From Snowella sp. (GTDB taxonomy: Bacteria; Cyanobacteriota; Cyanobacteriia; Cyanobacteriales; Microcystaceae), in the NCBI GenBank assembly GCA_035285545.1, contig JAYKGY010000023.1, positions 1-14,889 of the forward strand: a stretch of DNA of 14,889 nt, written 5' to 3'. Within the stretch, counting starts at the first letter, position 1, and each line of letters starts with the position of its first letter. The notes under the pieces are model-generated. The model was not told where the DNA came from, ran no database searches, and saw nothing but the letters and a program-made list of their open reading frames with translations. Made by a program: the position numbers and the translations under genes. Of this stretch, positions 1-14,889 are shown piece by piece.

Positions 1-116
1 ATCGTTTCCGAGGCATCCTTATTCGATGGGCCAAATCTTCTCAATCCTACTTGGGCTTTATTCAGATTGCTGCTTGTTTGATCATCGGCCGCAAACTTCT
101 CACATTTTTCGGATAG
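1..116 (+). CDS. IS5-family transposase, C-terminal tail (start lies outside the window)
   Basis: Frame from nt 3 reads RFRGILIRWAKSSQSYLGFIQIAACLIIGRKLLTFFG* (TAG 114-116). This matches the IS5-family C-terminal pattern (RFRrLliRWeK..nYlafl.lA). The stop lies inside the terminal inverted repeat. Confidence 0.8.
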   Translation, partial: RFRGILIRWAKSSQSYLGFIQIAACLIIGRKLLTFFG

Positions 117-120
117 GTTC
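1..120 (+). mobile_element. Right end of an IS5-family element; IRR TTTTCGGATAGGTTC (106-120), followed by a TAA target triplet (121-123)
   Basis: The transposase tail ends inside this 15-mer. Its reverse complement matches 14768-14782 at 14/15 nt. Confidence 0.8.
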
Positions 121-176
121 TAAGGGGATTAAGTAGTAAATGGACAAAAAACAACGGATTCTACTCAATCACAATA

Positions 177-1773: not shown

Positions 1774-1803
1774 TTGACAAGTATATTCCTATATAGCTAT
1801 ATT
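1774..1803 (+). promoter_or_regulatory. Sigma70-type promoter of psbA
   Basis: Perfect TTGACA (1774-1779), 18-nt spacer and TATATT (1798-1803). AGGA lies ~11 nt before ATG 1846. Confidence 0.7.
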
Positions 1804-3724: not shown

Positions 3725-4249
3725 ATGCGACTTAATCTGAAACTGATTCAATCTGCTGGGGTTAAACTGATTCTCTTGATCTGTCTTTTTATGTTTGTGA
3801 AAAATTCCCCCGCAATGGCTGCAACAACGAATTTATCTCCCTCTATTTTTTCAGAATTTTTACCTACCATGTCTCAAGATACTGCTAATTTAAAGACAAC
3901 GCTTACCCAATTTTTAACTTCTATTCCATCGGGGTTTTATACGCTGCCAACTATCGAAAAATTAAAAGATCAGTTGGAAAATCCACAAACAGTTTTAATT
4001 GATGTGCGAGAGCCTTCTGAATATCATTCAGGGCATATTCCCCAAGCCATTAATATTCCGCTACGGACTTTAACTCAAAAATTGGAAGCAATTCCTCGCG
4101 ATCGCCCAGTGGTGTTGTATTGTTCTGCGGGTTATCGGGCGGCAATGGGGGTGATGACCTTACACCTGTTGGGTTATGAAAATATTCAAGGTTTTCCACC
4201 GAGTTTTATGGGCTGGAAAAATGCGGGAGAGGCGATCGCTAAAGCCTGA
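3725..4249 (+). CDS. Single-domain rhodanese (sulfurtransferase) with predicted Sec signal peptide
   Basis: LIDVREPSEYHSGHIPQAINIP and active-site loop YCSAGYRA. The N-terminus has a basic region, a hydrophobic stretch and an AMA-A cleavage motif. Confidence 0.92.
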   Translation: MRLNLKLIQSAGVKLILLICLFMFVKNSPAMAATTNLSPSIFSEFLPTMSQDTANLKTTLTQFLTSIPSGFYTLPTIEKLKDQLENPQTVLIDVREPSEYHSGHIPQAINIPLRTLTQKLEAIPRDRPVVLYCSAGYRAAMGVMTLHLLGYENIQGFPPSFMGWKNAGEAIAKA

Positions 4250-4517: not shown

Positions 4518-5960
4518 ATGGATTTTTTTTCAGATACCGTTACACTATCACGGATTCAATTTGCTTTTACAGCGATCTTCCACATGCTTTGGCCGGTATT
4601 AACCACAGGAATGGCCATTTATTTAGTCATTATTGAAGGTTTATGGCTCAAAACTAAAAATATTGATTACTATCATCATGCCCGTTTTTGGTCAAAGCTC
4701 TATGTGCTAAATTTTGGGATTGGGGTGGCTTCGGGTTTGCCGATGGCCTTTCAATTTGGGTTAAATTGGGCCCCTTTTTCGGAATCCGTTGGCGATTTCT
4801 TCGGAACAGTTCTCGGTTTTGAGGGAACTATGGCTTTTATGCTGGAAGCGAGTTTTCTCGGCATTATGCTTTTTGGTTGGGAGCGGGTTCCGCCTTTAAT
4901 TCATTGGCTAGCAACAATTCTGGTGGCTTTTGGTGCAAATCTTTCAACTTTCTGGATTTTATCGGCTAATTCTTGGTTACAGACTCCAGCAGGGGGAATT
5001 TTTGTCGATGGGAAGTTTGTCGTTCAGGATTATTTCCAGGCGATCGCTAATCCCTTTATGCTGAAAAGTTTTCTGCACATGTTTTTTGCCACGTTGGAAA
5101 CTTCGTTATTTGTCATTGGCGGAATTAGTGCTTGGTATCTGATTAATAAGCGGGATACGGACTTTTTTACGCGATCGCTGAAAGTGGTGTTGGTGTTAAT
5201 TATTGCGATCGCACCGTTGCAACTTTTTATCGGCCATCTCAGTGCGGAACAGGTTTATCACTATCAGCCCACCAAATTAGCGGCAATGGAAGCCCAATGG
5301 GAAACGGTTCCTGCCAATCAACCCGCCGATTGGAGTTTAATTGCTGCACCCAATGTAAAAGAAGAAAAAAATGATTGGGAAATCAAAATTCCAGGACTTT
5401 TAAGTTATCTCCTTGAAGTCAAACCAGCCCTCAATGAACCCATTAAGGGATTAAAGGAATGGGCTACTGAGGATCGTCCCCATTTAGTGGGATTAGTTTA
5501 TTATTCCTTCCGCATAATGATTGCCATTGGTCTTTTCTTTGCTGCTTTAATGGCAATGACGGTAATCCAATGGATTCGGGGAAAATTGAACGCTCAAACC
5601 ATTAGTCAACAGACTTGGCTACTCAGAAGTTGGATTTTTGCGGCTCCTTTAGGCTATTTAGCGGTAGAAACGGGCTGGATTGTACGTTGTGTCGGACGGC
5701 AACCATGGATCGTTTATGGGGAATTGCGTACCGTTGATTCTGCTTCCAATTTACCAGCGGGTGAAGTCTTATTTTCGTTGCTTGGTTTAATGACCCTCTA
5801 CAGCATTTTGATTGTGGCAGCCCTTTACTTTGGTAGCCGCATTGTTCGCCAAGGCCCGAATCGCCAATTACCGCTACCTCAACCGATTAAACTACCCGCA
5901 TTAAACATCGAACCTGCTCAACATGAACGCGATCGCCGCCCCACAGAAGCCCAACAATAA
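4518..5960 (+). CDS. cydA: Cytochrome bd quinol oxidase subunit I (short Q-loop)
   Basis: SRIQFAFTAIFHMLWP, FEGTMAFMLEASF, LHMFFA, QPTKLAAME, AVETGW and GRQPW. Confidence 0.97.
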   Translation: MDFFSDTVTLSRIQFAFTAIFHMLWPVLTTGMAIYLVIIEGLWLKTKNIDYYHHARFWSKLYVLNFGIGVASGLPMAFQFGLNWAPFSESVGDFFGTVLGFEGTMAFMLEASFLGIMLFGWERVPPLIHWLATILVAFGANLSTFWILSANSWLQTPAGGIFVDGKFVVQDYFQAIANPFMLKSFLHMFFATLETSLFVIGGISAWYLINKRDTDFFTRSLKVVLVLIIAIAPLQLFIGHLSAEQVYHYQPTKLAAMEAQWETVPANQPADWSLIAAPNVKEEKNDWEIKIPGLLSYLLEVKPALNEPIKGLKEWATEDRPHLVGLVYYSFRIMIAIGLFFAALMAMTVIQWIRGKLNAQTISQQTWLLRSWIFAAPLGYLAVETGWIVRCVGRQPWIVYGELRTVDSASNLPAGEVLFSLLGLMTLYSILIVAALYFGSRIVRQGPNRQLPLPQPIKLPALNIEPAQHERDRRPTEAQQ

Positions 5961-5977
5961 AAAGAGAACATGACAAT

Positions 5978-6985
5978 ATGGAACCCTTACAACCGCTACA
6001 ACAGTTTTTACCCCAAGTTTGGTTTTGCATCTTAGGACTCTTTCTCTTTCTCTATGTCCTCTTAGATGGCTTTGATCTCGGTGTGGGAATTCTTTCCCTG
6101 ACCGCATCCAGTGAACAACGCCGCAGCATTTTAATGACCAGTTTGGGAAATGTCTGGGATGCAAACGAAACCTGGCTGGTTTTGATGGGCGGCTCCTTAT
6201 TCGGTGCCTTTCCCCTTGCCTATGCCACCATTTTAAATGCCCTTTATTTGCCCGCCGTTATTATGGTTGTGGGATTAATTTTAAGAGCCGTTTCCTTTGA
6301 ATTTCGGGAAAATGCTAATCGTAAGTTAATTTGGAACGTTGCTTTCGGGGTCGGCAGTTTTCTCGCCGCTTTAGGTCAAGGATTTGCATTGGGCAGTGTT
6401 TTTGAAGGAATTACCGTTGATGCTCAAGGACACTTTGCAGGGGGCATTTGGGATTGGTTAACCTGGCGGTCTGTTATTGTTGCTTTAACTTTAATTCAAG
6501 GTTATGTCCTCATCGGCTCAACCTATTTAATTTTAAAAACCACAGGGGAATTACAAGAAACCCACTATAAGACGGCAACACTCGCTGCTTGGACAACTTT
6601 GGTCGGCGCAATCTTTATTACCATTACTACGCCAATTATGTCGGAAGAAGCCCGCACTCAATTGTTTACGGCTCCTTTAATTTATGTTTTTGGACTCATC
6701 CCAGTTTTAGGATTACTGTTAAGTGGACTACTGATTAAAAGCTTAAATCGTCGAGAAGAAAATACGCCACTGATTTGGACATTTTCGTTATTTACCCTGT
6801 CTTTTGTTGGATTAGGTTTCGTTATTTTTCCCAATATTATTCCACCCAGCATTACTATTTATGAAGCCGCTGCTGCACCAAGCTCTCTAGTTTTTATGCT
6901 AACTTTTATTGGCTTTTTGATTCCTGTTTTGTTATTTTATAATATTTATAATTATTTAGTTTTTCGAGGAAAAATTACTGACTAA
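5978..6985 (+). CDS. cydB: Cytochrome bd quinol oxidase subunit II
   Basis: LDGFDLGVG, VWDANETWLV, AFP.AY and LRAVSFEFR. Starts 17 nt after cydA. Confidence 0.97.
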   Translation: MEPLQPLQQFLPQVWFCILGLFLFLYVLLDGFDLGVGILSLTASSEQRRSILMTSLGNVWDANETWLVLMGGSLFGAFPLAYATILNALYLPAVIMVVGLILRAVSFEFRENANRKLIWNVAFGVGSFLAALGQGFALGSVFEGITVDAQGHFAGGIWDWLTWRSVIVALTLIQGYVLIGSTYLILKTTGELQETHYKTATLAAWTTLVGAIFITITTPIMSEEARTQLFTAPLIYVFGLIPVLGLLLSGLLIKSLNRREENTPLIWTFSLFTLSFVGLGFVIFPNIIPPSITIYEAAAAPSSLVFMLTFIGFLIPVLLFYNIYNYLVFRGKITD

Positions 6986-7094: not shown

Positions 7095-9782
7095 TTAGAT
7101 CAAAAGTTGAAAAAATATAACTGTAAAGCCAATCATTAGCAATAGGTGAGGCAAGTTACTCAACAGCGATCGCTGGGTAATGCGTAACAAAGGATAGGGG
7201 CTAAAGACCAACGCTGACAGGAGCGTAACCCCTTGGAGAAATTGAGCAACATCTAGACTCCAGGTTAAACTGGGTAAGACAATAAGATTAAAGCCGAAAG
7301 AATAAGCGGTAACAGGAAGAATACGGCCCGCTTCAGTGATTGCCGCAGGAATGTAATAGGCTAAATTGGCTGCTAGGGTCAACGGGAGATAGATATAGAT
7401 AACCGTCAGATAATTGGGTTGTTGGGGGTCAAAATAACAGGCGATCACGTGGGTTAAATAGGTTAAAATCGCGGGGATGCTTAACAAAATCAGTGTAATG
7501 GGAATACTAATCAGTAAATGCTCCGAATCTAGGCTAATGGAATCGAATCCGAAAGCTCTGAGTATTTTCTGGGATTGGTGCATAAATACACCACCCAAGA
7601 GCAACAGTAATAACGCAATTTCTGCCCAAAAACCTTGATGATTATCCAATAAATCCGAAGCGGGAAAGCGAAGATTGAGTTGGGCGGAACGATTGGGGCA
7701 AGCTTTGAGGCAGGTCATACAGAACATACAATCCCGATTATCCTGCAACTGATTTGGATGGGAATAGAGAGGGCAACCATCTGTTGCTTGACCTTCATTG
7801 GGGAGGGCATCGGGAAAGCTGATCGGGGTAGCGGCACTGCCTTTATAACAACCAAACGTATTACATTGGCTGCCACAGACCTGTTGAGTAGAGCGCAACT
7901 CGATCATGGAAAGCTTGGCAAACATTCCATTCATGCCCCCAATTGGACAAAGATAACGACACCACAGCCGCCGTTCATAAATTTGGCTAAAAATGACTGC
8001 TCCTGCTGTGATCACCAACAATAGCCAAGCAGATAAATAGGCATGATGAGGTAAATCCCAGAGTTTTTCCCAGAGATAAATAGCGACAAATCCTGCAAAG
8101 AGAAACCACGCTCCCCAACGGTTCAGCGATCGCGTATTCCAGGTAAGTTGCTGACGGGGAAATAGCCACAGAGAAAGCCTCCGCAACCATTCCGCCGTAA
8201 TCATAAAGGGGCAAACCGCACACCAAAGCCGCCCGACAAAGGCAAACCAAAATAAATAACCGGGCCACCACCAGGCCCAAAAAAGATTTAAGGTGACGCT
8301 ATGTTCTCGATCCTGTGGGCCGATAAATCCCAATATAGTGACAGGCACAAAAATCACCATCATGATCAGCCAAAGTCCCTCTGGATACCAACGGCTGAGG
8401 AAAAATTGCCTTAAACCAGGCACATGAGTTAATAAATCTAAACGAAACGCATTTTTGGTTGATTGCACAGACCATAATGCCTGTTCGGGGATAAACTCAT
8501 AGCCCAACGGGGTCATCATGACGGCTCGGTGAAGGATTTCCGCCAATTCCGCAATATTGCCAGGATAGTCATAACTGATTAAACGACGGAGATCGGACTG
8601 ATCCAGTTGTAGAAGGGGACGATTTTGGGCTTGGCAAAACTGAGTGAGAAAATAACGGGCAAAATTGGGAATATCGGCTTTCCGTTGGCTGAGAGTCTGG
8701 AGTTTAATGGTCAGCGCGTTAATATCGGGTAATGATACTTTATTAGGAGAAGTGAGGATTAATCGAACCCAGGCGTAAATGGGTTGAGGCGGTTCCGTTG
8801 CTAAATCCAAAGGGTCAATAATGCCGTGATTGGGCAGAATAAACCCCGTTTTCAAATAATGGGCTAAACGGGCGCGATCGCCGTCTCCGAGAACTTGCAC
8901 ATTAGTTAACAGTAAGGTTCCCCGTTCCAACAGTTCAAAAATACCGACTTGACCATTGACTCGTCCAAACAAAAGATCTGTGTCTAACCGACCATCGCTG
9001 GATCTAGGCAACTTCGCACAATCCAATTCAGCAAAGGGGTTATCCGCCAATTCAGAACAGGCATGAATTAGACCCGCTAAAAAGGTTTTTCCTGTTCCTG
9101 GTTGAGCCTGAAAAATAACGGGTTTTACGCTCCCAGCCGCTTGTTGAACGTATTCGGCTAACTTTTGAGTAGCTTTACTATTACCCAAAATGGTTGTTTT
9201 TGTCGGAACCGCATGAAGGTAAGCCTGTAAGCCTTGAATACGGTGTTGTTCTTGGGCAAGACGTTCAATATAGTGATTTAAGTCTGCGGCTAATTGGCTA
9301 TTCAATAAATGTTCAATTTCAGGATGGTCTTGCATTAATTGTTGGAACTGAGCGATCGCCAAAAAGCCAATTTCACTATCGGTTAACGCGATCGCTTGAT
9401 TTTGATAGGTTCCCTTGTCTAAATTGGTCATCCAGGAGACATAACCAAACAAATCCCCCGCTCCTCGATGACGAATCAAAGATTTCCCTAATGCAGAGAG
9501 TCGATAAATCTCTACTTCACCGCTTTTAATGAGATATAAACCTATAATCGGCTGATTAGCTCTAAAAATGGGGGTTCCTGCTTTTACTGTCAATACATGC
9601 AGCGATCGCGCTAAATCTTGTAATGCCGTTTCCGATAATTGTCCCCAAAGTCGATGGGATTTTAACCATTGCTTAGATTCTGCAAGTTCGTTTTCCGTTA
9701 GGTTAGGTAACTCCTCCAATCCCGCCCCCAAGGGAAAGTTATCGCTCCGTAATGCAGAGATTGAATCCAGCCGAGAAACCAT
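7095..9782 (-). CDS. cNMP-binding domain + degenerate sigma54-activator-like AAA+ domain + polytopic membrane 4Fe-4S domain (NapH/RdxA-like)
   Basis: cNMP fold (LYLIKSGEVEI, GAGDLFG), Walker A AQPGTGKT, LSQRKADIP and YDYPGNIAEL. These are followed by many TM segments with GRLWCAVCP, WCRYLCP and CMFCMTCLKACP. Confidence 0.85.
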   Translation of the reverse strand: MVSRLDSISALRSDNFPLGAGLEELPNLTENELAESKQWLKSHRLWGQLSETALQDLARSLHVLTVKAGTPIFRANQPIIGLYLIKSGEVEIYRLSALGKSLIRHRGAGDLFGYVSWMTNLDKGTYQNQAIALTDSEIGFLAIAQFQQLMQDHPEIEHLLNSQLAADLNHYIERLAQEQHRIQGLQAYLHAVPTKTTILGNSKATQKLAEYVQQAAGSVKPVIFQAQPGTGKTFLAGLIHACSELADNPFAELDCAKLPRSSDGRLDTDLLFGRVNGQVGIFELLERGTLLLTNVQVLGDGDRARLAHYLKTGFILPNHGIIDPLDLATEPPQPIYAWVRLILTSPNKVSLPDINALTIKLQTLSQRKADIPNFARYFLTQFCQAQNRPLLQLDQSDLRRLISYDYPGNIAELAEILHRAVMMTPLGYEFIPEQALWSVQSTKNAFRLDLLTHVPGLRQFFLSRWYPEGLWLIMMVIFVPVTILGFIGPQDREHSVTLNLFWAWWWPGYLFWFAFVGRLWCAVCPFMITAEWLRRLSLWLFPRQQLTWNTRSLNRWGAWFLFAGFVAIYLWEKLWDLPHHAYLSAWLLLVITAGAVIFSQIYERRLWCRYLCPIGGMNGMFAKLSMIELRSTQQVCGSQCNTFGCYKGSAATPISFPDALPNEGQATDGCPLYSHPNQLQDNRDCMFCMTCLKACPNRSAQLNLRFPASDLLDNHQGFWAEIALLLLLLGGVFMHQSQKILRAFGFDSISLDSEHLLISIPITLILLSIPAILTYLTHVIACYFDPQQPNYLTVIYIYLPLTLAANLAYYIPAAITEAGRILPVTAYSFGFNLIVLPSLTWSLDVAQFLQGVTLLSALVFSPYPLLRITQRSLLSNLPHLLLMIGFTVIFFQLLI

Positions 9783-9888: not shown

Positions 9889-10755
9889 TTATCGCGTTAA
9901 CTTTTTAAGAACCGATTGAGTAGAAACCAGATGTTTATCTAGCCCTAATTTGTGGGGTTTAATCCCCAACGCTAAGCCGATTAACTCGGTGATATAAAGA
10001 ATCGGTAGGGAATAGCTGACATTATATTTCTTTTCAATATCAGGTTGCCGTAATTCCAAATTGGTTGAACAAAGCGGGCAAGCTAAAACGATGCAATCGG
10101 CTCCCAAAGCTTGGGCTTCATCTAAAAGTTTTTTGGTTAACTCATAGGCCACATTTTCTTGAGGAATTAAAATTGGCCCGCCACAGCATTTGGTTTTAGA
10201 GCGGAAATCGAGAACTTCTGCGCCACAAGCCTTTGCTAAATTATCCATTGCCATCGGTCGAACAGGAGAGTCCCAACCCGTTAAATCTTCAGGACGAGTC
10301 AGCAAACAGCCGTAATAGCAGGCCACTTTTAAACCCGTCAGAGGTCGTTTCACATATTTGGTAATGTTAATATCATTGGCTAAAACATCCACCACACTCC
10401 TTACTTTAATCGGGTTATTTTGGACTTTAATTCCCATTTCTTCTAGGATTGGCGTAATTTTAGACTTTTCAATTGGATCTTCTAAGGCTCGATTGGCTTT
10501 GGCGGATTTATTGTAACAACCTGAACAGGAAGCCAGCAGATCTTGACTTTGGGCTTGGGCAAGAACCACATTTCTAGCGGCTAAGGCCATACTCAATTCA
10601 TGATTAACCCCCCCTGCAATTGATCCGCCACAACACGACCAATTTTTTAGTTCTTCGAGTTCAAATCCCAAAGCTTGCATAACGGCTTTGGTGGACAGAT
10701 CAAATTCTTTCGCAGACGTATGAAGGCTACAGCCAGGATAATAAGAATATTTCAT
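9889..10755 (-). CDS. hdrB: Heterodisulfide reductase subunit B-like (HdrB2), two intact CCG domains
   Basis: YYPGC...SCCGG...CSGC and YYGC...KCCGG...CPLC, i.e. the CX31-39CCX35-36CXXC-type motif occurs twice. Confidence 0.93.
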   Translation of the reverse strand: MKYSYYPGCSLHTSAKEFDLSTKAVMQALGFELEELKNWSCCGGSIAGGVNHELSMALAARNVVLAQAQSQDLLASCSGCYNKSAKANRALEDPIEKSKITPILEEMGIKVQNNPIKVRSVVDVLANDINITKYVKRPLTGLKVACYYGCLLTRPEDLTGWDSPVRPMAMDNLAKACGAEVLDFRSKTKCCGGPILIPQENVAYELTKKLLDEAQALGADCIVLACPLCSTNLELRQPDIEKKYNVSYSLPILYITELIGLALGIKPHKLGLDKHLVSTQSVLKKLTR

Positions 10756-10840
10756 AATGTTATACCTATTTTAATCAATCTTAAATAATGGGGCATTGCT
10801 AGATTCAGACATGACCCCTTGGTTTCGTTAATGGTAATAG

Positions 10841-10919
10841 CCCCCTAAATCCCCCAATTCTGGGGGACTTTCGAGCATTGTGATCGCTGAGTTTCCAAAA
10901 AAGTTGGAGGATTGGAGAG
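10841..10919. repeat. Cyanobacterial REP-like palindromic repeat (one intact unit, one decayed unit)
   Basis: CCCCCTAAATCCCCCAATTCTGGGGGACTTT (10841-10871) contains a TCCCCCA/TGGGGGA hairpin. A degenerate partner TTTCCAAAAAAGTTGGAGGATTGGAGAG lies at 10892-10919. Confidence 0.7.
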
Positions 10920-10934
10920 ATAATATCGAGAATG

Positions 10935-10973
10935 TTATTTGCATAGAAGTCAAATTAATTTGGTATGCAATAA
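10935..10973. other. Hairpin immediately after the hdrC2 stop
   Basis: TTATTTGCATA...TATGCAATAA arms surround the palindrome CAAATTAATTTG. Confidence 0.45.
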
Positions 10974-11573
10974 TTAGGGCGTTTTAACTTTTGATAAAGC
11001 GTCACGGAAAGCTTGGGGATTTTTAACTTGAGCGGGAAGGGGGGATAATTTTCCTTTCAAGGCTAATTGAATACCGAGGGGAGCTTGTTCCATGACTGCT
11101 TTTAAGCCGCCGTATTCTCGGATTAGTTCAGGCTCAAAAAGAATGCCCCATTTTTGAATAATATTGACGAAAATTTGATTAAATCGGGTGGAGTCGTTTT
11201 CAATGCCTTCTCGAATCGCGATTGCTTTCACTGCTTCAATCACTTCCGAAGGACGAACCCCACGAGGACAACGGGAGGTGCAAGTATGGCAAGAACTACA
11301 GAGCCAAAGGGTATTGCTTTTAATAACCGTTTCCCATTCTCCCCGTTGCACCATCAACACTAAACTTCTGGGAGTCAGATCCATGCGATCTACATTCGGG
11401 CAACCCCCGCTACAGGTTCCACACTGCATACAAGCGGCAATTTTAGCGGCCTCGCCTCCCTCTGCTTTAACCCGTTCTTGAAAGGCGTGATTCATTCGAT
11501 CTCCATCCACTTGGCGATCGCGTTTAATCCCGAAGAAACATTTCTTTTTCGTTTTAGTTAATTGTGCGGTCAT
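10974..11573 (-). CDS. hdrC: Heterodisulfide reductase subunit C-like (HdrC2), 2x[4Fe-4S]
   Basis: CMQCGTCSGGCP and LWLCSSCHTCTSRCPRGV. RBS AGGAG is upstream. Confidence 0.93.
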   Translation of the reverse strand: MTAQLTKTKKKCFFGIKRDRQVDGDRMNHAFQERVKAEGGEAAKIAACMQCGTCSGGCPNVDRMDLTPRSLVLMVQRGEWETVIKSNTLWLCSSCHTCTSRCPRGVRPSEVIEAVKAIAIREGIENDSTRFNQIFVNIIQKWGILFEPELIREYGGLKAVMEQAPLGIQLALKGKLSPLPAQVKNPQAFRDALSKVKTP

Positions 11574-11612
11574 GCCGTCATCTCCTATTAAATTAGGTTA
11601 AATATTGAGAAT

Positions 11613-12689
11613 CTATTTTTCTAAGAGCGCGACAGAACCCGAACTCACTGATTGACCGTTATAGCTAATAAAAACAGAGCTAGGAGCTAAAAAGGCAGCA
11701 ATTTCGGCAGCAGCAGAGCGGCCATCGGTGATCGATTCCACAATCGCTTTGGGGCCTGTGGCGGTTCCTGCGAGGAAAATTCCTGGACGAGGTGAAGCAT
11801 TATTGGAATATTGTTGATGGGCAGTCGTATAGAAGCGATCGCAACCAATTTCTAACCCTGCGACTTGAGCCATTTCCGTATTGCCTTCCATTCCCACCAT
11901 CAAAACCAACATATCGACGGTTAATTTCATGGGTTTTGCAATCAAGGTATCTTCCAGACGGAGTAACAAACTGCCCTGACCATCATTTTTCTCATTGGCT
12001 TCTGACAATCGACCCCGAATAAATTGAATGCCGTAGGTTTCCTGCGCTGTGCGATAAAGTTCTTCGTAACCCCGACCGAAAACCCGAATATCCATATAAA
12101 GGCAGTAAATATCGCAATCAGGAATTAATTTTTTGATTTCAATGGCATCTTTAATGGTATTGGTGCAACAGACACGAGAACAGTAATAATTGCCCACTTT
12201 TTGGTCACGGGAGCCGACACAGTGAATCATGGCAATTTTTTTCGGAACCTTGCCCTGTACCGTCGTTAATCGTCCTTCCTTGAGCCGTAAATCCAGTTCA
12301 ACCGCCGTAATACAATTATCGTAAACGCCATAACCGTATTCTTCTTTTAAGGTTGCATCAAAGTGATAAAATCCGGTGGTCATTAGAATAGCTGCTGCTT
12401 CCAAGGTTTCCCCATTGGACAGACTAACTTGAAACTGGGGAGAAGTTCCCGCGATCGCGCTGACGGTTGTTTCGGTTAAAACTCTGGTTCCGTTCAATTC
12501 TCGTTGTAATTGATTGACAATCTCTGCGCCCTCGGTGAAATCGGGAAAGACTTTAAACCAGTTTTTGACATGACCGCCTAAAGCCCTTTCTTTTTCTATC
12601 AGCGTCACCTGAAAACCTAAGTGGGAAAGTTTTGCAGAAGCTGACATTCCCGCAACGCCTCCACCAATAACAACAATCTGTTTATTCAT
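11613..12689 (-). CDS. hdrA: Short HdrA-like FAD/[4Fe-4S] subunit (358 aa, no ferredoxin domains)
   Basis: VIGGGVAG Rossmann motif, EEYGYG, HdrA signature CVGSRD...YCSRVCC, YMDIR.FG..YE and GIFLAGTATGPK. Confidence 0.93.
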   Translation of the reverse strand: MNKQIVVIGGGVAGMSASAKLSHLGFQVTLIEKERALGGHVKNWFKVFPDFTEGAEIVNQLQRELNGTRVLTETTVSAIAGTSPQFQVSLSNGETLEAAAILMTTGFYHFDATLKEEYGYGVYDNCITAVELDLRLKEGRLTTVQGKVPKKIAMIHCVGSRDQKVGNYYCSRVCCTNTIKDAIEIKKLIPDCDIYCLYMDIRVFGRGYEELYRTAQETYGIQFIRGRLSEANEKNDGQGSLLLRLEDTLIAKPMKLTVDMLVLMVGMEGNTEMAQVAGLEIGCDRFYTTAHQQYSNNASPRPGIFLAGTATGPKAIVESITDGRSAAAEIAAFLAPSSVFISYNGQSVSSGSVALLEK

Positions 12690-12738
12690 AGCTTGCTCAT
12701 CCGAATAAAAGGTTAATAAGGTTAAGTGTTAGAAAAAT

Positions 12739-13785
12739 TTAAAAAGGCCGACGGCGTTCTTCAAAGGTTTTTGAGCGATCGTAGGGAATTCCAATTTGAT
12801 CTAATAACGGTTCAATCGCGATCGCTTTGGCATTCAAACCACAATCTTTGAAGGGGTCGTAACCGAGCAGCAGACCCGTTAATTGGGCATAATCCAACAC
12901 ACAAACCCCAAAATCTTCTTCTAACACTTCCCGAATCGTTCCTTGTTCTGCATCCAAGAAAACCGTACAGCCTGGACAGTTGGTTAAAATCAATTTACAG
13001 TCGGGATGGGCTTCTTTGAGACTCTTCATTTTTTTATAAACGGAGCCTGCGGTATAGTCTCGATTTTCGGGAAAAGCACATTGACGAAAACCCATACCGC
13101 AACAATGCCGCCGTTCAGGATAATCAACGATCTCAGCCCCAAACGCCTGTAACATTCCCACTAAAATCTGGGGGAACTCTGCGCCGCCCATTGCTTCTTC
13201 AGGGAAAATTTTGGCGTAGTGACAGCCCACATGATCGGTTGCTTTAATGCCTTTCAAACTATATTTGGCTTTAGCCGCTAACTTATGGCGATTGGCAAAA
13301 AAGACATCGGATGCATGAACTACCGAAGGACGACCTTCTAAGACATGGGGAACCCAAAATTCACGCCCTGTTGTTTCTTTTAAGGTTTTGGCAGTATATT
13401 CTCGCAATTCGGGTTCTTCTTCCCAAAGCTTCATCATTTCCGTGTAATTAGCGAAAGACGTTACACAAAAAGAAAATAATTTATCGACTCCCAGTTCGTA
13501 GTGAGCAAGGGAAAAATTGCGGGCAGCCACCACCATTTGGGTTTCAATATTGGTGACATCACCGTGATAACCGATCGCGCCGCAGGAGGTATGGCCTGGG
13601 GCTTCTCGTAAATCGATGCCTAAATCATTTTTGAGAATTTTGTAGGCAATGCCTTCGGTATAAGGAGCCGCACTTTGCAAAAAACAACTGCGAAAACAGC
13701 CCCACACTTTTCCATCGGGATCATCAATACTGGGAACAGCTTTTTGGTGTTTTTCCCATGCTTTTACTTTTCCTTCAACTTTCAT
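12739..13785 (-). CDS. hdrB: HdrB1-like subunit with a modified first CCG domain
   Basis: First domain RSC...TSCGAIGYH...FCVTSFANY is altered. Second domain HVGCHY...HCCGMGF...NCPGC is intact. RBS GAGGA is upstream. Confidence 0.9.
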   Translation of the reverse strand: MKVEGKVKAWEKHQKAVPSIDDPDGKVWGCFRSCFLQSAAPYTEGIAYKILKNDLGIDLREAPGHTSCGAIGYHGDVTNIETQMVVAARNFSLAHYELGVDKLFSFCVTSFANYTEMMKLWEEEPELREYTAKTLKETTGREFWVPHVLEGRPSVVHASDVFFANRHKLAAKAKYSLKGIKATDHVGCHYAKIFPEEAMGGAEFPQILVGMLQAFGAEIVDYPERRHCCGMGFRQCAFPENRDYTAGSVYKKMKSLKEAHPDCKLILTNCPGCTVFLDAEQGTIREVLEEDFGVCVLDYAQLTGLLLGYDPFKDCGLNAKAIAIEPLLDQIGIPYDRSKTFEERRRPF

Positions 13786-13924
13786 GCTTTTTATTTCCTC
13801 AAGGGTATTTATAAAAAATTGATGGTTAATTTTGGCTATAGTTTTTTAAAAAGGCGAAGACTGATCAACGAATTAACGGTTGACCTAAATAGGATTCAAA
13901 ATAAATTTAATTGGGTAAATTTGA

Positions 13925-14626
13925 TTACTCTGGCAGAGAATAATTCCTGCTATCTGCGGTTTCTAACCAATTTTGCCAGTATTTTTCTACTTCTTCCTTG
14001 CTGCCTAATTTCTTTTCCATTCCCTTTTCTACTGCTTCCATTAACGCGATCGCGCCCGTTTTTTCGTAGATGGTTCGTAATTCTTCTAAGTCTTTTTCAG
14101 GAATTTGCCGATGGGAACCCGCACTATTTTCCAAATCCATCGGTACGCCCCACCATTCCCGCATTTCTGCCATGTGTTCGTAATAGTATTCCCAGTTTTC
14201 GCCTAATTCGGGGAAATGGGCAGGAGAAATATTTTGAGCAACTAATGTATAACCCCGTTTAAGCATATTTTCGCCAAAAACGCGCTTAGCAAACAGTTGT
14301 TGTCGGCCTTTTTCCGATTCAGCAAAATAACCATGTTTGACCGACAGACGACGCAGAGCCAGAATCACCGATGCCGCACTATTCCCCCTCGGACAACGGG
14401 TTTTACAAGAAAAACATTGCCCACAATACCAAATTTGCTCGGATTTGAGCAGGGCTTCAATCTGTTCATCATCTTCAGACTGCACGGTATTCATCACTTC
14501 ACGGGGCGAATACTCGTAAAATTCGGCAGCAGGACAAACGGCAGTACAAACCCCACAGTTGAGGCAGGCGTTCATCCCATGTTCATACAAAATGTCTTGC
14601 TTGAGTTCGTTGAATAATTGACCCAT
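13925..14626 (-). CDS. hdrC: HdrC1-like subunit, 2x[4Fe-4S]
   Basis: CLNCGVCTAVCP and IWYCGQCFSCKTRCPRGN. The start is placed at ATG 14626 (MGQLF) because GGGGGT lies 7 nt upstream. Confidence 0.92.
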   Translation of the reverse strand: MGQLFNELKQDILYEHGMNACLNCGVCTAVCPAAEFYEYSPREVMNTVQSEDDEQIEALLKSEQIWYCGQCFSCKTRCPRGNSAASVILALRRLSVKHGYFAESEKGRQQLFAKRVFGENMLKRGYTLVAQNISPAHFPELGENWEYYYEHMAEMREWWGVPMDLENSAGSHRQIPEKDLEELRTIYEKTGAIALMEAVEKGMEKKLGSKEEVEKYWQNWLETADSRNYSLPE

Positions 14627-14767
14627 TGAATTACCCCCGATTGCTTTATCTATCATATAACCAGATAGTAAAATAGTTATCAATAGGGATAAATACTCAA
14701 TTTTTAGCTTAGGGGAAAATTTAAAAGCTTTGTCAAAGTCGCGATCGCCAACTAACTGTTCGACTAA

Positions 14768-14889
14768 GAGCCTATCCGAAAAGTCAATAGGAACGAAATT
14801 GGTACATTTTAGCGAACGCTAACTTCACTAGCTAGGTGGACGGTTATTTCCCTAGCAAATGCTCGGATAACTATCTCTCAAATGAGTCC
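14768..14889 (+). mobile_element. Probable left end of a second IS5-family element; IRL GAGCCTATCCGAAAA, preceded by TAA (14765-14767)
   Basis: 14/15 match to the reverse complement of 106-120. The sequence beyond differs from the reverse complement of 1-105, so this is the opposite end rather than an inverted copy. An ATG at 14882 could be a transposase start. Confidence 0.7.

What the first reader, a model, noticed from the sequence alone, without database searches (positions are those of the whole stretch)
9889..14626. Five-gene hdrC1-B1-A-C2-B2 (sHdr-like) cluster in a cyanobacterium
Seen: five co-oriented intact genes in the order C1-B1-short A-C2-B2, with FAD, 4Fe-4S and CCG motifs. Known: C1-B1-A-H-C2-B2 with a ~350-aa HdrA is the layout of the sulfur-oxidising sHdr system (Hyphomicrobium, Acidithiobacillus, Aquifex). 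Cyanobacterial sulfur energy metabolism is normally described only through SQR, and their usual HdrB-like protein is a lone succinate dehydrogenase subunit. Inference: this is a cytoplasmic sulfane-sulfur/disulfide oxidoreductase. It could oxidise sulfur beyond S0, or it could act as the electron sink for the dark anaerobic S0 reduction known from mat cyanobacteria. I know of no characterised cyanobacterial example, but cannot search.
Basis: partly seen in the sequence, partly recalled or inferred. Interest (0 to 1): 0.92.

Follow-up and report, generated by a model that had tools for sequence, protein, structure and literature searches.

The report
Cyanobacterial sulfur-redox enzyme, sHdr cousin
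Some sulfide-tolerant cyanobacteria carry five genes for an iron-sulfur flavoenzyme related to, but distinct from, the sulfur-oxidising sHdr complex, and it is a testable candidate for the unidentified oxygen-independent step that takes sulfide beyond elemental sulfur in their photosynthesis.

Summary
The five genes are real, intact and belong to this cyanobacterial genome. They are not a canonical sHdr: sHdrH, LbpA, its lipoylation genes and DsrE were not found, and identity to type I sHdr is 30-35%. HdrB1 forms, with Altiarchaeales and Bacteroidales-labelled proteins, the sister clade of sHdrB1 (99/96) and shares its degenerate first non-cubane site. The cluster occurs in 17 of 401 Cyanobacteriota genomes sampled, all with an SQR (type I 12/17 versus 25/384), often directly beside sqr. 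A conserved 20-bp palindrome precedes hdrC1, pdo, sqr, low-oxygen psbA and acsF/ho, and tracks a BigR/SqrR-like ArsR. Best reading (0.45): an O2-independent persulfide oxidoreductase downstream of SQR that makes sulfite and discharges electrons on a second (per)sulfide; main rival (0.25): a reductive electron sink. Direction is not shown. The cluster is in print for two cyanobacteria without a sulfur role; an sHdr study lists a carrier strain as shdr-negative. This scan reached a similar reading earlier on another genome (e1-2300337).

The parts
14655..14674 (.). Degenerate copy of a 20-bp palindromic operator about 30 bp upstream of hdrC1
   Evidence: Score 14.1 with a matrix trained on 51 other genomes' upstream regions, window excluded; shuffled maximum 13.2; ninth-best site in the 4.16-Mb genome
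13925..14626 (-). hdrC1, 2x[4Fe-4S] ferredoxin-like subunit, 233 aa
   Evidence: 35% to type I sHdrC1, 68% to Altiarchaeales
12739..13785 (-). hdrB1, CCG subunit with degenerate site 1 (TSC, CVTS) and canonical site 2 (GCH, CC, CPGC); likely catalytic
11613..12689 (-). short hdrA, FAD plus one [4Fe-4S], no N-terminal, inserted or C-terminal ferredoxin domains
   Evidence: model pLDDT 87, TM 0.88/0.92 to 6TJR
10974..11573 (-). hdrC2, 2x[4Fe-4S], 199 aa
9889..10755 (-). hdrB2, both non-cubane cysteine sets intact; likely disulfide/persulfide reductase
   Evidence: motifs in 60-61 of 61 cyanobacterial B2
7095..9782 (-). cNMP-binding/AAA/NapH-like 4Fe-4S membrane protein directly downstream; in 3 of 49 other full loci
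1783..1802 (.). Second copy of the same operator, upstream of psbA
   Evidence: score 18.3, third-best site in the genome
1846..2928 (+). psbA of the low-oxygen D1' type
   Evidence: TIGR01151; A80, L158, A286; the D1' signature itself is recalled, not from a call
3725..4249 (+). single-domain rhodanese
   Evidence: PF00581; family in 13 of 49 other full loci
4518..6985 (+). cydAB, cytochrome bd quinol oxidase

Best explanation
A soluble (HdrA)2-C1B1-C2B2 complex that works on sulfane sulfur when sulfide is present and oxygen is scarce, downstream of SQR. Steps: (1) SQR oxidises sulfide to persulfide/polysulfide and reduces plastoquinone (known chemistry; co-location shown). (2) Persulfide releases a BigR/SqrR-like ArsR repressor from the palindrome before hdrC1, pdo, sqr and psbA (motif and its co-occurrence with the ArsR shown; binding inferred). 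(3) With O2, PDO removes persulfide; without O2, B1 oxidises the sulfane sulfur to sulfite at its sHdrB1-like site (inferred from the shared signature). (4) Electrons pass C1 -> A dimer -> C2 -> B2, which reduces a disulfide or a second persulfide. As LbpA is missing, I propose a low-molecular thiol or rhodanese persulfide, so that sulfide is released and re-enters SQR: net dismutation that feeds more electrons per sulfide into the plastoquinone pool (inferred). (5) Sulfite leaves via TauE or condenses with sulfane sulfur to thiosulfate (inferred). That the substrate is sulfane sulfur, in either direction: about 0.75; this oxidative route: 0.45.
For: B1 site 1 reads xSC/TSC/CxTS in 63 of 63 cyanobacterial B1 (RSC 60 of 63) and in 80 of 81 type I sHdrB1, against CC and CxxC in B2 and methanogen HdrB. 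B1 clade is sister to sHdrB1, 99/96. 17 of 17 carriers have an SQR: type I in 12 of 17 versus 25 of 384 non-carriers, type II in the other five. An sqr lies in 30 of 49 full loci; type I sqr follows hdrB2 within -18 to 133 bp in five of them, overlaps it in L029 and follows at 5 bp on the PCC 7003 plasmid; type II sqr precedes hdrC1 in five. Operator before pdo 12 of 17, sqr-II 9 of 19, psbA 4 of 9, unrelated genes 3 of 233; before pdo in 9 of 10 hdr-negative genomes with the ArsR beside pdo (score >=15) and 0 of 10 where it was not found. No hydrogenase, MvhD, Flx or Etf among 105 further neighbours or the recurrent families, so no dedicated electron donor is encoded as a pure reductase usually has. 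Sodalinema stali CCY9619 makes thiosulfate, not S0, in anoxygenic photosynthesis (PMC12694226, passage); related named strains (P. willei BDU 130791, HE10JO) carry sqr-II then the cluster, and C. chthonoplastes has the HdrA. A paper title reports sulfite as intermediate of anaerobic sulfide oxidation to thiosulfate by marine cyanobacteria (Rabenstein 1995, title only). Dismutation becomes exergonic at <=10 uM sulfide or pH 8 with low sulfite (recalled potentials).
Against: No activity, expression or mutant data. LbpA is essential in Hyphomicrobium (PMC6067878) and only one canonical GcvH was found in each of 19 carriers. The nearest relatives, with the same site-1 signature, are in Altiarchaeales and Bacteroidales, anaerobes that I do not know as sulfur oxidisers. 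B1 site 2 is canonical CPGC (63 of 63) where type I sHdrB1 has DTGC (80 of 81), and HdrA keeps the Lys that methanogen HdrA has and sHdrA lacks. Standard free energy of dismutation is about +89 kJ per sulfite. The regulon also holds acsF/ho and D1', so it may answer low oxygen as much as sulfur. PDO, common in these taxa (108 of 401), could explain thiosulfate where traces of O2 remain. The operator precedes type I sqr itself in only 3 of 16 cases. The genome of S. stali CCY9619 was not checked. Genomes are related, so the counts overstate.
Confidence: 0.45

Rival explanations
1. Reductive persulfide/S0 reductase: reduced ferredoxin (or NAD(P)H through a partner) delivers electrons to HdrA or HdrC, and B1 and B2 reduce polysulfide or glutathione persulfide to sulfide. 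It detoxifies sulfane sulfur without O2 and is the electron sink of dark fermentation; with SQR and cytochrome bd it would also shuttle electrons to the quinone pool.
For: Sister lineages in strict anaerobes; the Altiarchaeales locus has C1-B1-A-C plus a 630-aa membrane CCG protein with 5 predicted helices. B2 and B1 site 2 are canonical reductase sites; HdrA keeps the methanogen-type Lys. Thermodynamically easy. cydAB and a Hox hydrogenase are in this genome. Dark S0 reduction by mat cyanobacteria is recalled; the paper was not held.
Against: No electron-input genes near the cluster. Co-transcription with type I sqr would form a futile cycle in the light. Two different B modules are not needed for one reduction. 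Geitlerinema PCC 9228, recalled as the model dark S0 reducer, is not among the 64 loci and its genome paper has no 'hdr'; both are weak.
Confidence: 0.25
2. A low-oxygen thiol/disulfide oxidoreductase with a non-sulfane substrate (thioredoxin, glutathione disulfide, protein disulfides), recruited into a general hypoxia regulon.
For: Operator also before acsF/ho, D1' psbA, feoA-like and an aldehyde-decarbonylase-like gene; low-oxygen genes in 21 of 49 loci.
Against: Sulfur genes are more frequent neighbours (36 of 49), sqr is often abutting, and the operator tracks an ArsR whose helix-2 Cys aligns with that of BigR and SqrR-type structures.
Confidence: 0.15
3. Sulfane oxidation to sulfite with electrons leaving through the HdrA flavin to ferredoxin/NAD(P)+ and a high-potential acceptor (bifurcation), or with housekeeping GcvH standing in for LbpA.
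For: HdrA keeps the Lys near FAD (role recalled); a petC-like Rieske gene lies in 17 of 49 loci; GcvH is present in 19 of 19.
Against: HdrA lacks all ferredoxin domains; no subunit has a membrane helix; LbpA and GcvH are not interchangeable in the tests reported in PMC6067878 (abstract); gcvH is unlinked.
Confidence: 0.12
4. Assembly artefact or contaminant contig.
For: Not found in 5 of 5 genomes of the same genus; contig bounded by IS ends.
Against: Composition, shared repeats, linkage to psbA, and complete cyanobacterial records with the cluster.
Confidence: 0.01

Closest known systems
Type I sHdr-LbpA system (Hyphomicrobium denitrificans, Acidithiobacillus, Aquifex)
   Same: Order C1-B1-A...C2-B2; short HdrA with the 6TJR fold; degenerate B1 site 1; B2 in one clade with sHdrB2 and SdhE-type proteins (100/99, unresolved inside); linkage to sulfur-handling genes and an ArsR repressor.
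   Different: No sHdrH (A-C2 gap -53 to 252 bp in 49 loci versus 669-969 bp in 38 of 40 reference loci), no LbpA, lipoylation genes or DsrE; 30-35% identity; B1 about 100 aa shorter with canonical site 2; HdrA Lys kept; outside the sHdrB1 clade.
Type II sHdr (shdrC1B1AHB3-etfAB-emo)
   Same: C1-B1-A core; presumed type II B1 proteins share site 1.
   Different: Separate C2 and B2, no H, no EtfAB/EMO; the presumed type II B1 (label from taxon names, synteny not checked) have DTGC and group with type I.
Uncharacterised HdrC1B1A clusters of Altiarchaeales and Bacteroidales
   Same: Closest relatives: B1 72%, C1 68%, A 55% to Altiarchaeales; B1 43%, A about 50% to Bacteroidales-labelled proteins.
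   Different: The Altiarchaeales locus ends in a short C and a membrane CCG protein instead of soluble C2-B2. Bacteroidales gene context was not seen.
Methanogen HdrABC
   Same: TrxR-fold HdrA core, HdrC, CCG HdrB.
   Different: HdrA half the length, no MvhD/hydrogenase, all NCBIfam scores below cut-off, two unlike B-C modules.
Cyanobacterial Slr0201-type SdhE/HdrB
   Same: CCG fold; 38% to B2.
   Different: A separate lone gene on C13 in this genome; own long branch. Its role in succinate dehydrogenase is from a search listing only.
hdrB-hdrC-hdrA-hdrB-hdrC of Cyanobacterium sp. DS4; hdrA2B2C2 of Phormidium pseudopriestleyi
   Same: Very probably the same cluster (P. pseudopriestleyi FRX01 is L048; DS4 sequences were not compared).
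   Different: Those papers compare it with methanogen Hdr and leave substrate unknown or suggest bifurcation; in the passages read they make no link to sHdr, SQR or a regulon.

Membership tests
Type I sHdr-LbpA | Syntenic shdrC1B1AHC2B2 including sHdrH | tested here: not met
   Definition in PMC11094781; 39-bp A-C2 gap; no sHdrH hit in the genome
Type I sHdr-LbpA | Short sHdrA, FAD plus one [4Fe-4S], no ferredoxin domains | tested here: met
Type I sHdr-LbpA | sHdrB1 degenerate site 1 (TSC, CxTS) | tested here: met
Type I sHdr-LbpA | sHdrB1 site 2 Cys-to-Asp (DTGC) | tested here: not met
   CPGC in 63 of 63 cyanobacterial B1; DTGC in 80 of 81 references
Type I sHdr-LbpA | B1 and A inside the sHdr clades | tested here: not met
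   Sister clade for B1 (careful tree); separate clade for A (quick tree, long branches warned, no type II rows)
Type I sHdr-LbpA | LbpA and dedicated lipoylation genes | tested here: not met
   One strong GCV_H match in each of 19 carriers, plus two marginal 35-39-aa hits; sLplAB, LipS, LipX queries gave no hit in the 95%-complete genome; lbpA-like gene in 33 of 40 reference loci
Type I sHdr-LbpA | TusA and DsrE sulfur transferases | tested here: not met
   No DsrE or DsrE_2 match; one unlinked TusA-family gene, a family also found in the Synechococcus elongatus control; rhodaneses present
Type I sHdr-LbpA | HMSS2 sHdr HMM cut-offs | not testable with these tools
   HMMs not held. Indirect: PMC12423496 lists P. 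willei BDU 130791 as without shdr, though L054 holds the cluster
Type I sHdr-LbpA | Oxidation of protein-bound sulfane sulfur to sulfite | not testable with these tools
   Needs biochemistry or genetics
Type II sHdr | shdrC1B1AHB3 with etfAB | tested here: not met
   Separate C2 and B2; no H; no Etf among neighbours
Methanogen HdrABC | Long HdrA with ferredoxin domains, MvhD/hydrogenase partner, NCBIfam cut-offs | tested here: not met
SqrR/BigR persulfide-sensing ArsR (proposed regulator, not in the window) | Two cysteines (helix 2 and C-terminal helix) forming a sulfur bridge; binding to the operator | tested here: inconclusive
   Helix-2 Cys aligns with 3PQJ and 6O8K; it is present in 7 of the 9 locus proteins (absent in L072; L034 and L022 have it in the same LC/SC position) and a C-terminal CxxxC is in 8 of 9, but that end was outside the printed alignments; binding not testable

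The most novel reading that the evidence does not exclude
Cyanobacteria have a third, lipoate-free type of sHdr-like complex that dismutates sulfane sulfur and recycles the sulfide through a co-transcribed SQR, so that anoxygenic photosynthesis draws up to 4-6 electrons per sulfide instead of 2 and yields sulfite/thiosulfate. It would be the missing enzyme of anaerobic sulfide-to-thiosulfate oxidation in mat cyanobacteria, and its clade with Altiarchaeales and Bacteroidales would mark the stock from which sHdr arose.
Probability: 0.35. Interest if true: 0.9.

Novelty: new variant of a known kind. Interest (0 to 1): 0.74.

Why it matters
Cyanobacterial sulfide photosynthesis is modelled as SQR alone, two electrons per sulfide, ending at S0 (PMC5776472), yet some strains make sulfite and thiosulfate and no enzyme is assigned. 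This cluster gives a concrete candidate in cultured strains (PCC 7003, C. chthonoplastes, Gloeothece PCC 7424, P. willei BDU 130791), so the question becomes testable with one deletion. If oxidative, electron budgets for sulfidic mats and Proterozoic models change; if reductive, it names the dark sulfur-reducing enzyme. Either way it shows an Hdr-like lineage that surveys requiring sHdrH do not count, and it defines a cyanobacterial sulfide/low-oxygen regulon joining pdo, sqr, D1' and hdr.

Tried and rejected
Contaminant or chimera: rejected. Canonical sHdr: rejected (membership tests). Single-sequence fold of HdrA failed (pLDDT 31); the alignment-based model was used. Expression: no RNA holder listed; no evidence either way. 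The promoter/terminator scan found no more than chance. ChlR- and FNR-type patterns (recalled) matched 0 of 47 hdrC1 upstream regions and the ChlR pattern none of 8 regions of this genome; the ChlR review gave no motif; chlR itself was not searched. PDO co-occurrence (17 of 17 carriers) is not specific: 108 of 401 genomes. The ArsR was found in 15 of 17 carriers and 96 of 401 genomes; the two carriers without it still have weaker sites (about 12-13), which weakens the pairing. The hdrC1 operator count (43 of 50) is partly circular because the matrix was trained there. SoeABC/Psr: the only molybdopterin enzyme found looks like nitrate reductase by its N-terminus (not confirmed by HMM). No Bacteroidales loci or synteny-verified type II loci could be fetched. 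No complex prediction was run. Literature: searches (open-access library only) showed no functional study; 'hdr' was absent from PMC8651085, PMC5776472, PMC5061849, PMC7784965, PMC12694226, PMC12466478. The one held supplement file of PMC11094781 had no 'Cyanobacteri' but may not include Table S1. Ernst 2021, Kuempel 2024, Wagner 2017, de Wit 1987 and Rabenstein 1995 were not read; subscription papers or unseen supplements may already discuss this clade.

Full report
Observation. The window is the whole contig C23 of a 4.16-Mb genome. On the minus strand lie five intact ORFs: hdrC1 (14626-13925), hdrB1 (13785-12739), a 358-aa hdrA (12689-11613), hdrC2 (11573-10974) and hdrB2 (10755-9889). C1 and C2 each have two CxxCxxCxxxCP motifs and no subunit has a predicted membrane helix. 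The contig also holds psbA, a rhodanese, cydAB, a cNMP/AAA/4Fe-4S protein and a resolvase. Composition matches the genome, both ends are repeats shared with more than 20 other contigs, and in the probable source run one contig spans 2262-10869 and another 10843-14793 without mismatch.

Distribution. A scan of species genomes returned 64 loci, mostly titled cyanobacteria; three carry other labels (Sphingobacterium, Actinomycetota, Sulfopaludibacter; the B1 of the last nests among cyanobacterial B1), some are 'uncultured bacterium', and one is Altiarchaeales. 49 of 64 hold all five genes, 48 in this order and one with B1 and A in one ORF; most of the other 15 are cut by a contig end or are lone extra B1 copies. 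Identity to the window: B1 77-91%, C1 72-92%, A 60-82%. In an even draw of 401 genomes of the phylum 17 carry B1; among 40 relatives 6 carry the HdrA, none of 5 in the same genus. It is on a plasmid in Picosynechococcus PCC 7003. Patchy occurrence, a plasmid copy and IS ends suggest lateral spread (inference).

Relation to sHdr. I used an Acidithiobacillus plasmid HdrB to fetch 80 metagenome loci, which show C1-B1-A-H-C2-B2 with lbpA and lipoylation genes and serve as type I references. The window proteins are 30-35% identical to them. The HdrA model (pLDDT 87) matches the Hyphomicrobium HdrA-like subunit 6TJR best (TM 0.88/0.92, rmsd 1.8). B1 shares a telling signature with sHdrB1: in the first non-cubane site two cysteines are replaced by serine (TSC, CxTS) in 63 of 63 cyanobacterial and 80 of 81 reference proteins, whereas the second site is canonical CPGC in cyanobacteria and DTGC in the references. 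B2 keeps both sites. In a bootstrap tree of 40 of the 86 B sequences collected, cyanobacterial B1 (100/100) joins Altiarchaeales B1 (100/100) and two proteins, one labelled Williamwhitmania (100/99); this clade is sister to all sHdrB1 (100/100), joined at 99/96. A quick HdrA tree gives the same grouping, with a long-branch warning and no type II rows. HdrA keeps the Lys found in methanogen HdrA where sHdrA has Asn. The accessory system is missing: A-C2 gaps are -53 to 252 bp versus 669-969 bp in 38 of 40 references; each of 19 carriers has one strong GcvH-family match; no DsrE, sLplAB, LipS or LipX was found in this 95%-complete genome. By the definition in PMC11094781 (passages) and the LbpA requirement in PMC6067878 (passages) it is not a member, but it is built like one.

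Context. SQR genes lie in 30 of 49 full loci, any sulfur-handling gene (sqr, pdo, rhodanese, tauE, yeeE, sulP) in 36, low-oxygen genes in 21. The two SQR families match Aquifex/Acidithiobacillus-type and mitochondrial-type structures, hence types I and II. Type I sqr follows hdrB2 within -18 to 133 bp in five full loci, overlaps it in L029 and follows at 5 bp in PCC 7003; type II sqr precedes hdrC1 in five. Type I SQR is in 12 of 17 carriers and 25 of 384 others; the other five have type II. Of the 401 genomes, 217 are in families with neither gene, so the fairer background is about 25 of 167; kin are not independent. This genome has type II sqr, a type I sqr cut by a contig end, and arsR-pdo-rhodanese with tauE on other contigs. 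None of 105 further neighbours is a hydrogenase, MvhD, Flx, Etf, LbpA or DsrE.

A shared operator. Upstream of hdrC1 a palindrome with consensus ATATAACT-ATAT-AGTTATAT overlaps the likely -10 region in 41 of 51 other loci. A matrix trained without the window finds, among the ten best sites of this genome, acsF/ho-hemN, the genes ahead of type I sqr, the window's psbA, pdo and hdrC1; 8 of 2287 long ORFs have a site scoring 12 or more. In the loci it precedes pdo in 12 of 17, sqr-II 9 of 19, psbA 4 of 9, arsR 4 of 8, sqr-I 3 of 16 and unrelated genes 3 of 233. In hdr-negative genomes chosen for having the ArsR beside pdo, the site scores 15 or more in 9 of 10; in 10 genomes where the ArsR was not found (7 of them hdr-negative or not checked beyond, 2 carriers included), in 0 of 10, with three at 11.5-12.1. 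The ArsR's helix-2 cysteine aligns with BigR and SqrR-type structures. So the cluster most likely belongs to a persulfide- and low-oxygen regulon; binding is inferred. Closeness of sqr, arsR and low-oxygen psbA was already noted in PMC5061849 (section 18), without hdr or a motif in the text I read.

Mechanism. Shown: cofactor motifs, kinship, context, operator. Inferred: substrate and direction. Two unlike B-C modules around an HdrA without ferredoxin domains, and no donor genes, fit an enzyme that couples an oxidative half-reaction at B1 to a reductive one at B2, as proposed for sHdr. Without LbpA the simplest acceptor at B2 is another persulfide or disulfide; released sulfide would be re-oxidised by the adjacent SQR, which supplies the missing link to plastoquinone. 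With recalled potentials this is +89 kJ per sulfite at standard state but negative at 10 uM sulfide and 1 uM sulfite, or at pH 8. Physiology points the same way: Sodalinema stali CCY9619 makes thiosulfate in anoxygenic photosynthesis (PMC12694226, passage), PMC5776472 cites thiosulfate and sulfite as products and leaves a second enzyme hypothetical (passages), and a 1995 title names sulfite as intermediate of anaerobic oxidation (title only). P. willei BDU 130791 and HE10JO carry sqr-II followed by the cluster and C. chthonoplastes has the HdrA; CCY9619 itself was not checked. Against this, the nearest relatives are anaerobes, with a membrane CCG subunit in Altiarchaeales, reduction is energetically easier, and PDO can make thiosulfate if O2 leaks. 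I give 0.45 to oxidation/dismutation, 0.25 to reduction, 0.15 to a non-sulfane role and 0.12 to other oxidative wiring.

What is known. The cluster is printed for Cyanobacterium sp. DS4 as hdrB-C-A-B-C with substrates unknown (PMC12060301, passage) and for P. pseudopriestleyi as hdrA2B2C2 (PMC8002359, passage). [quoted passage not shown] A mat study says its cyanobacteria encoded only SQR and that markers of Hdr-based oxidation are unclear (PMC13384644). Ten searches of an open-access library found no functional study.

Verdict. Real; a new variant of a known kind: an LbpA-less, sHdrH-less sister lineage of sHdr inside a cyanobacterial sulfide/low-oxygen regulon. Presence is not new to print; the placement, the SQR coupling and the operator appear to be. 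Interest 0.74, because it makes an old physiological question testable while the direction of catalysis is unproven.

Noticed in passing
window 1-121 and 14767-14889: Both contig ends are the two ends of one 1036-bp high-copy element, so the 14.6-kb low-oxygen block, with a resolvase at 395-1360, may be a composite transposon or simply broken at two copies.
   Followed up: partly
L024, L027, L060, L073 (about 10001-11047 in the first three), L023: A lone second hdrB1 with all motifs intact (87-88% to operon copies) sits between an NMO-like gene and psbA-Tll0287-DUF3122 in several Oscillatoriales; lone or doubled B1 also occurs in Altiarchaeales (L069) and on an Acidithiobacillus plasmid near a GcvH-like gene (L076).
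   Followed up: partly
G000 C125:701-1465: An aldehyde-deformylating-oxygenase-like gene (label from recalled similarity) lies between the operator and type I sqr, apparently in one operon.
   Followed up: no
G000 C70:102264; C139:29694; C116:8250: The operator also precedes acsF/ho-hemN, a feoA-like gene and an MFS transporter; the acsF/ho/psbA set is usually credited to ChlR (recalled), so this genome may have a second or replaced regulator.
   Followed up: partly
window 7095-9782: 895-aa cNMP-binding, degenerate sigma54-type AAA, NapH-like 4Fe-4S membrane protein; a paralogue at 38% on C12; cyanobacteria are recalled to lack sigma54.
   Followed up: no
L026:1285-3396: B1 and A in a single 703-aa ORF in a Laspinema MAG; real fusion or sequence error.
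   Followed up: no
L069:7371-15969: Altiarchaeales locus with doubled C1-B1, a NifX-like gene, short HdrA, a 112-aa ferredoxin and a 630-aa membrane CCG protein; 68-72% identity to cyanobacterial C1/B1 hints at transfer between domains, direction unknown.
   Followed up: partly
L074:14041-14595 and L048:14668-15117: DUF2202 and NifX-like small proteins recur beside the cluster (6 and 10 of 49 loci); possible carriers, not found in this genome.
   Followed up: partly
L013, L046, L065: Records titled Sphingobacterium, Actinomycetota and Sulfopaludibacter carry cyanobacterial-type clusters; labels or bins look wrong.
   Followed up: partly
window 10756-10973: The C2-B2 gap holds a dispersed repeat with 35 other hits in the genome.
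   Followed up: partly
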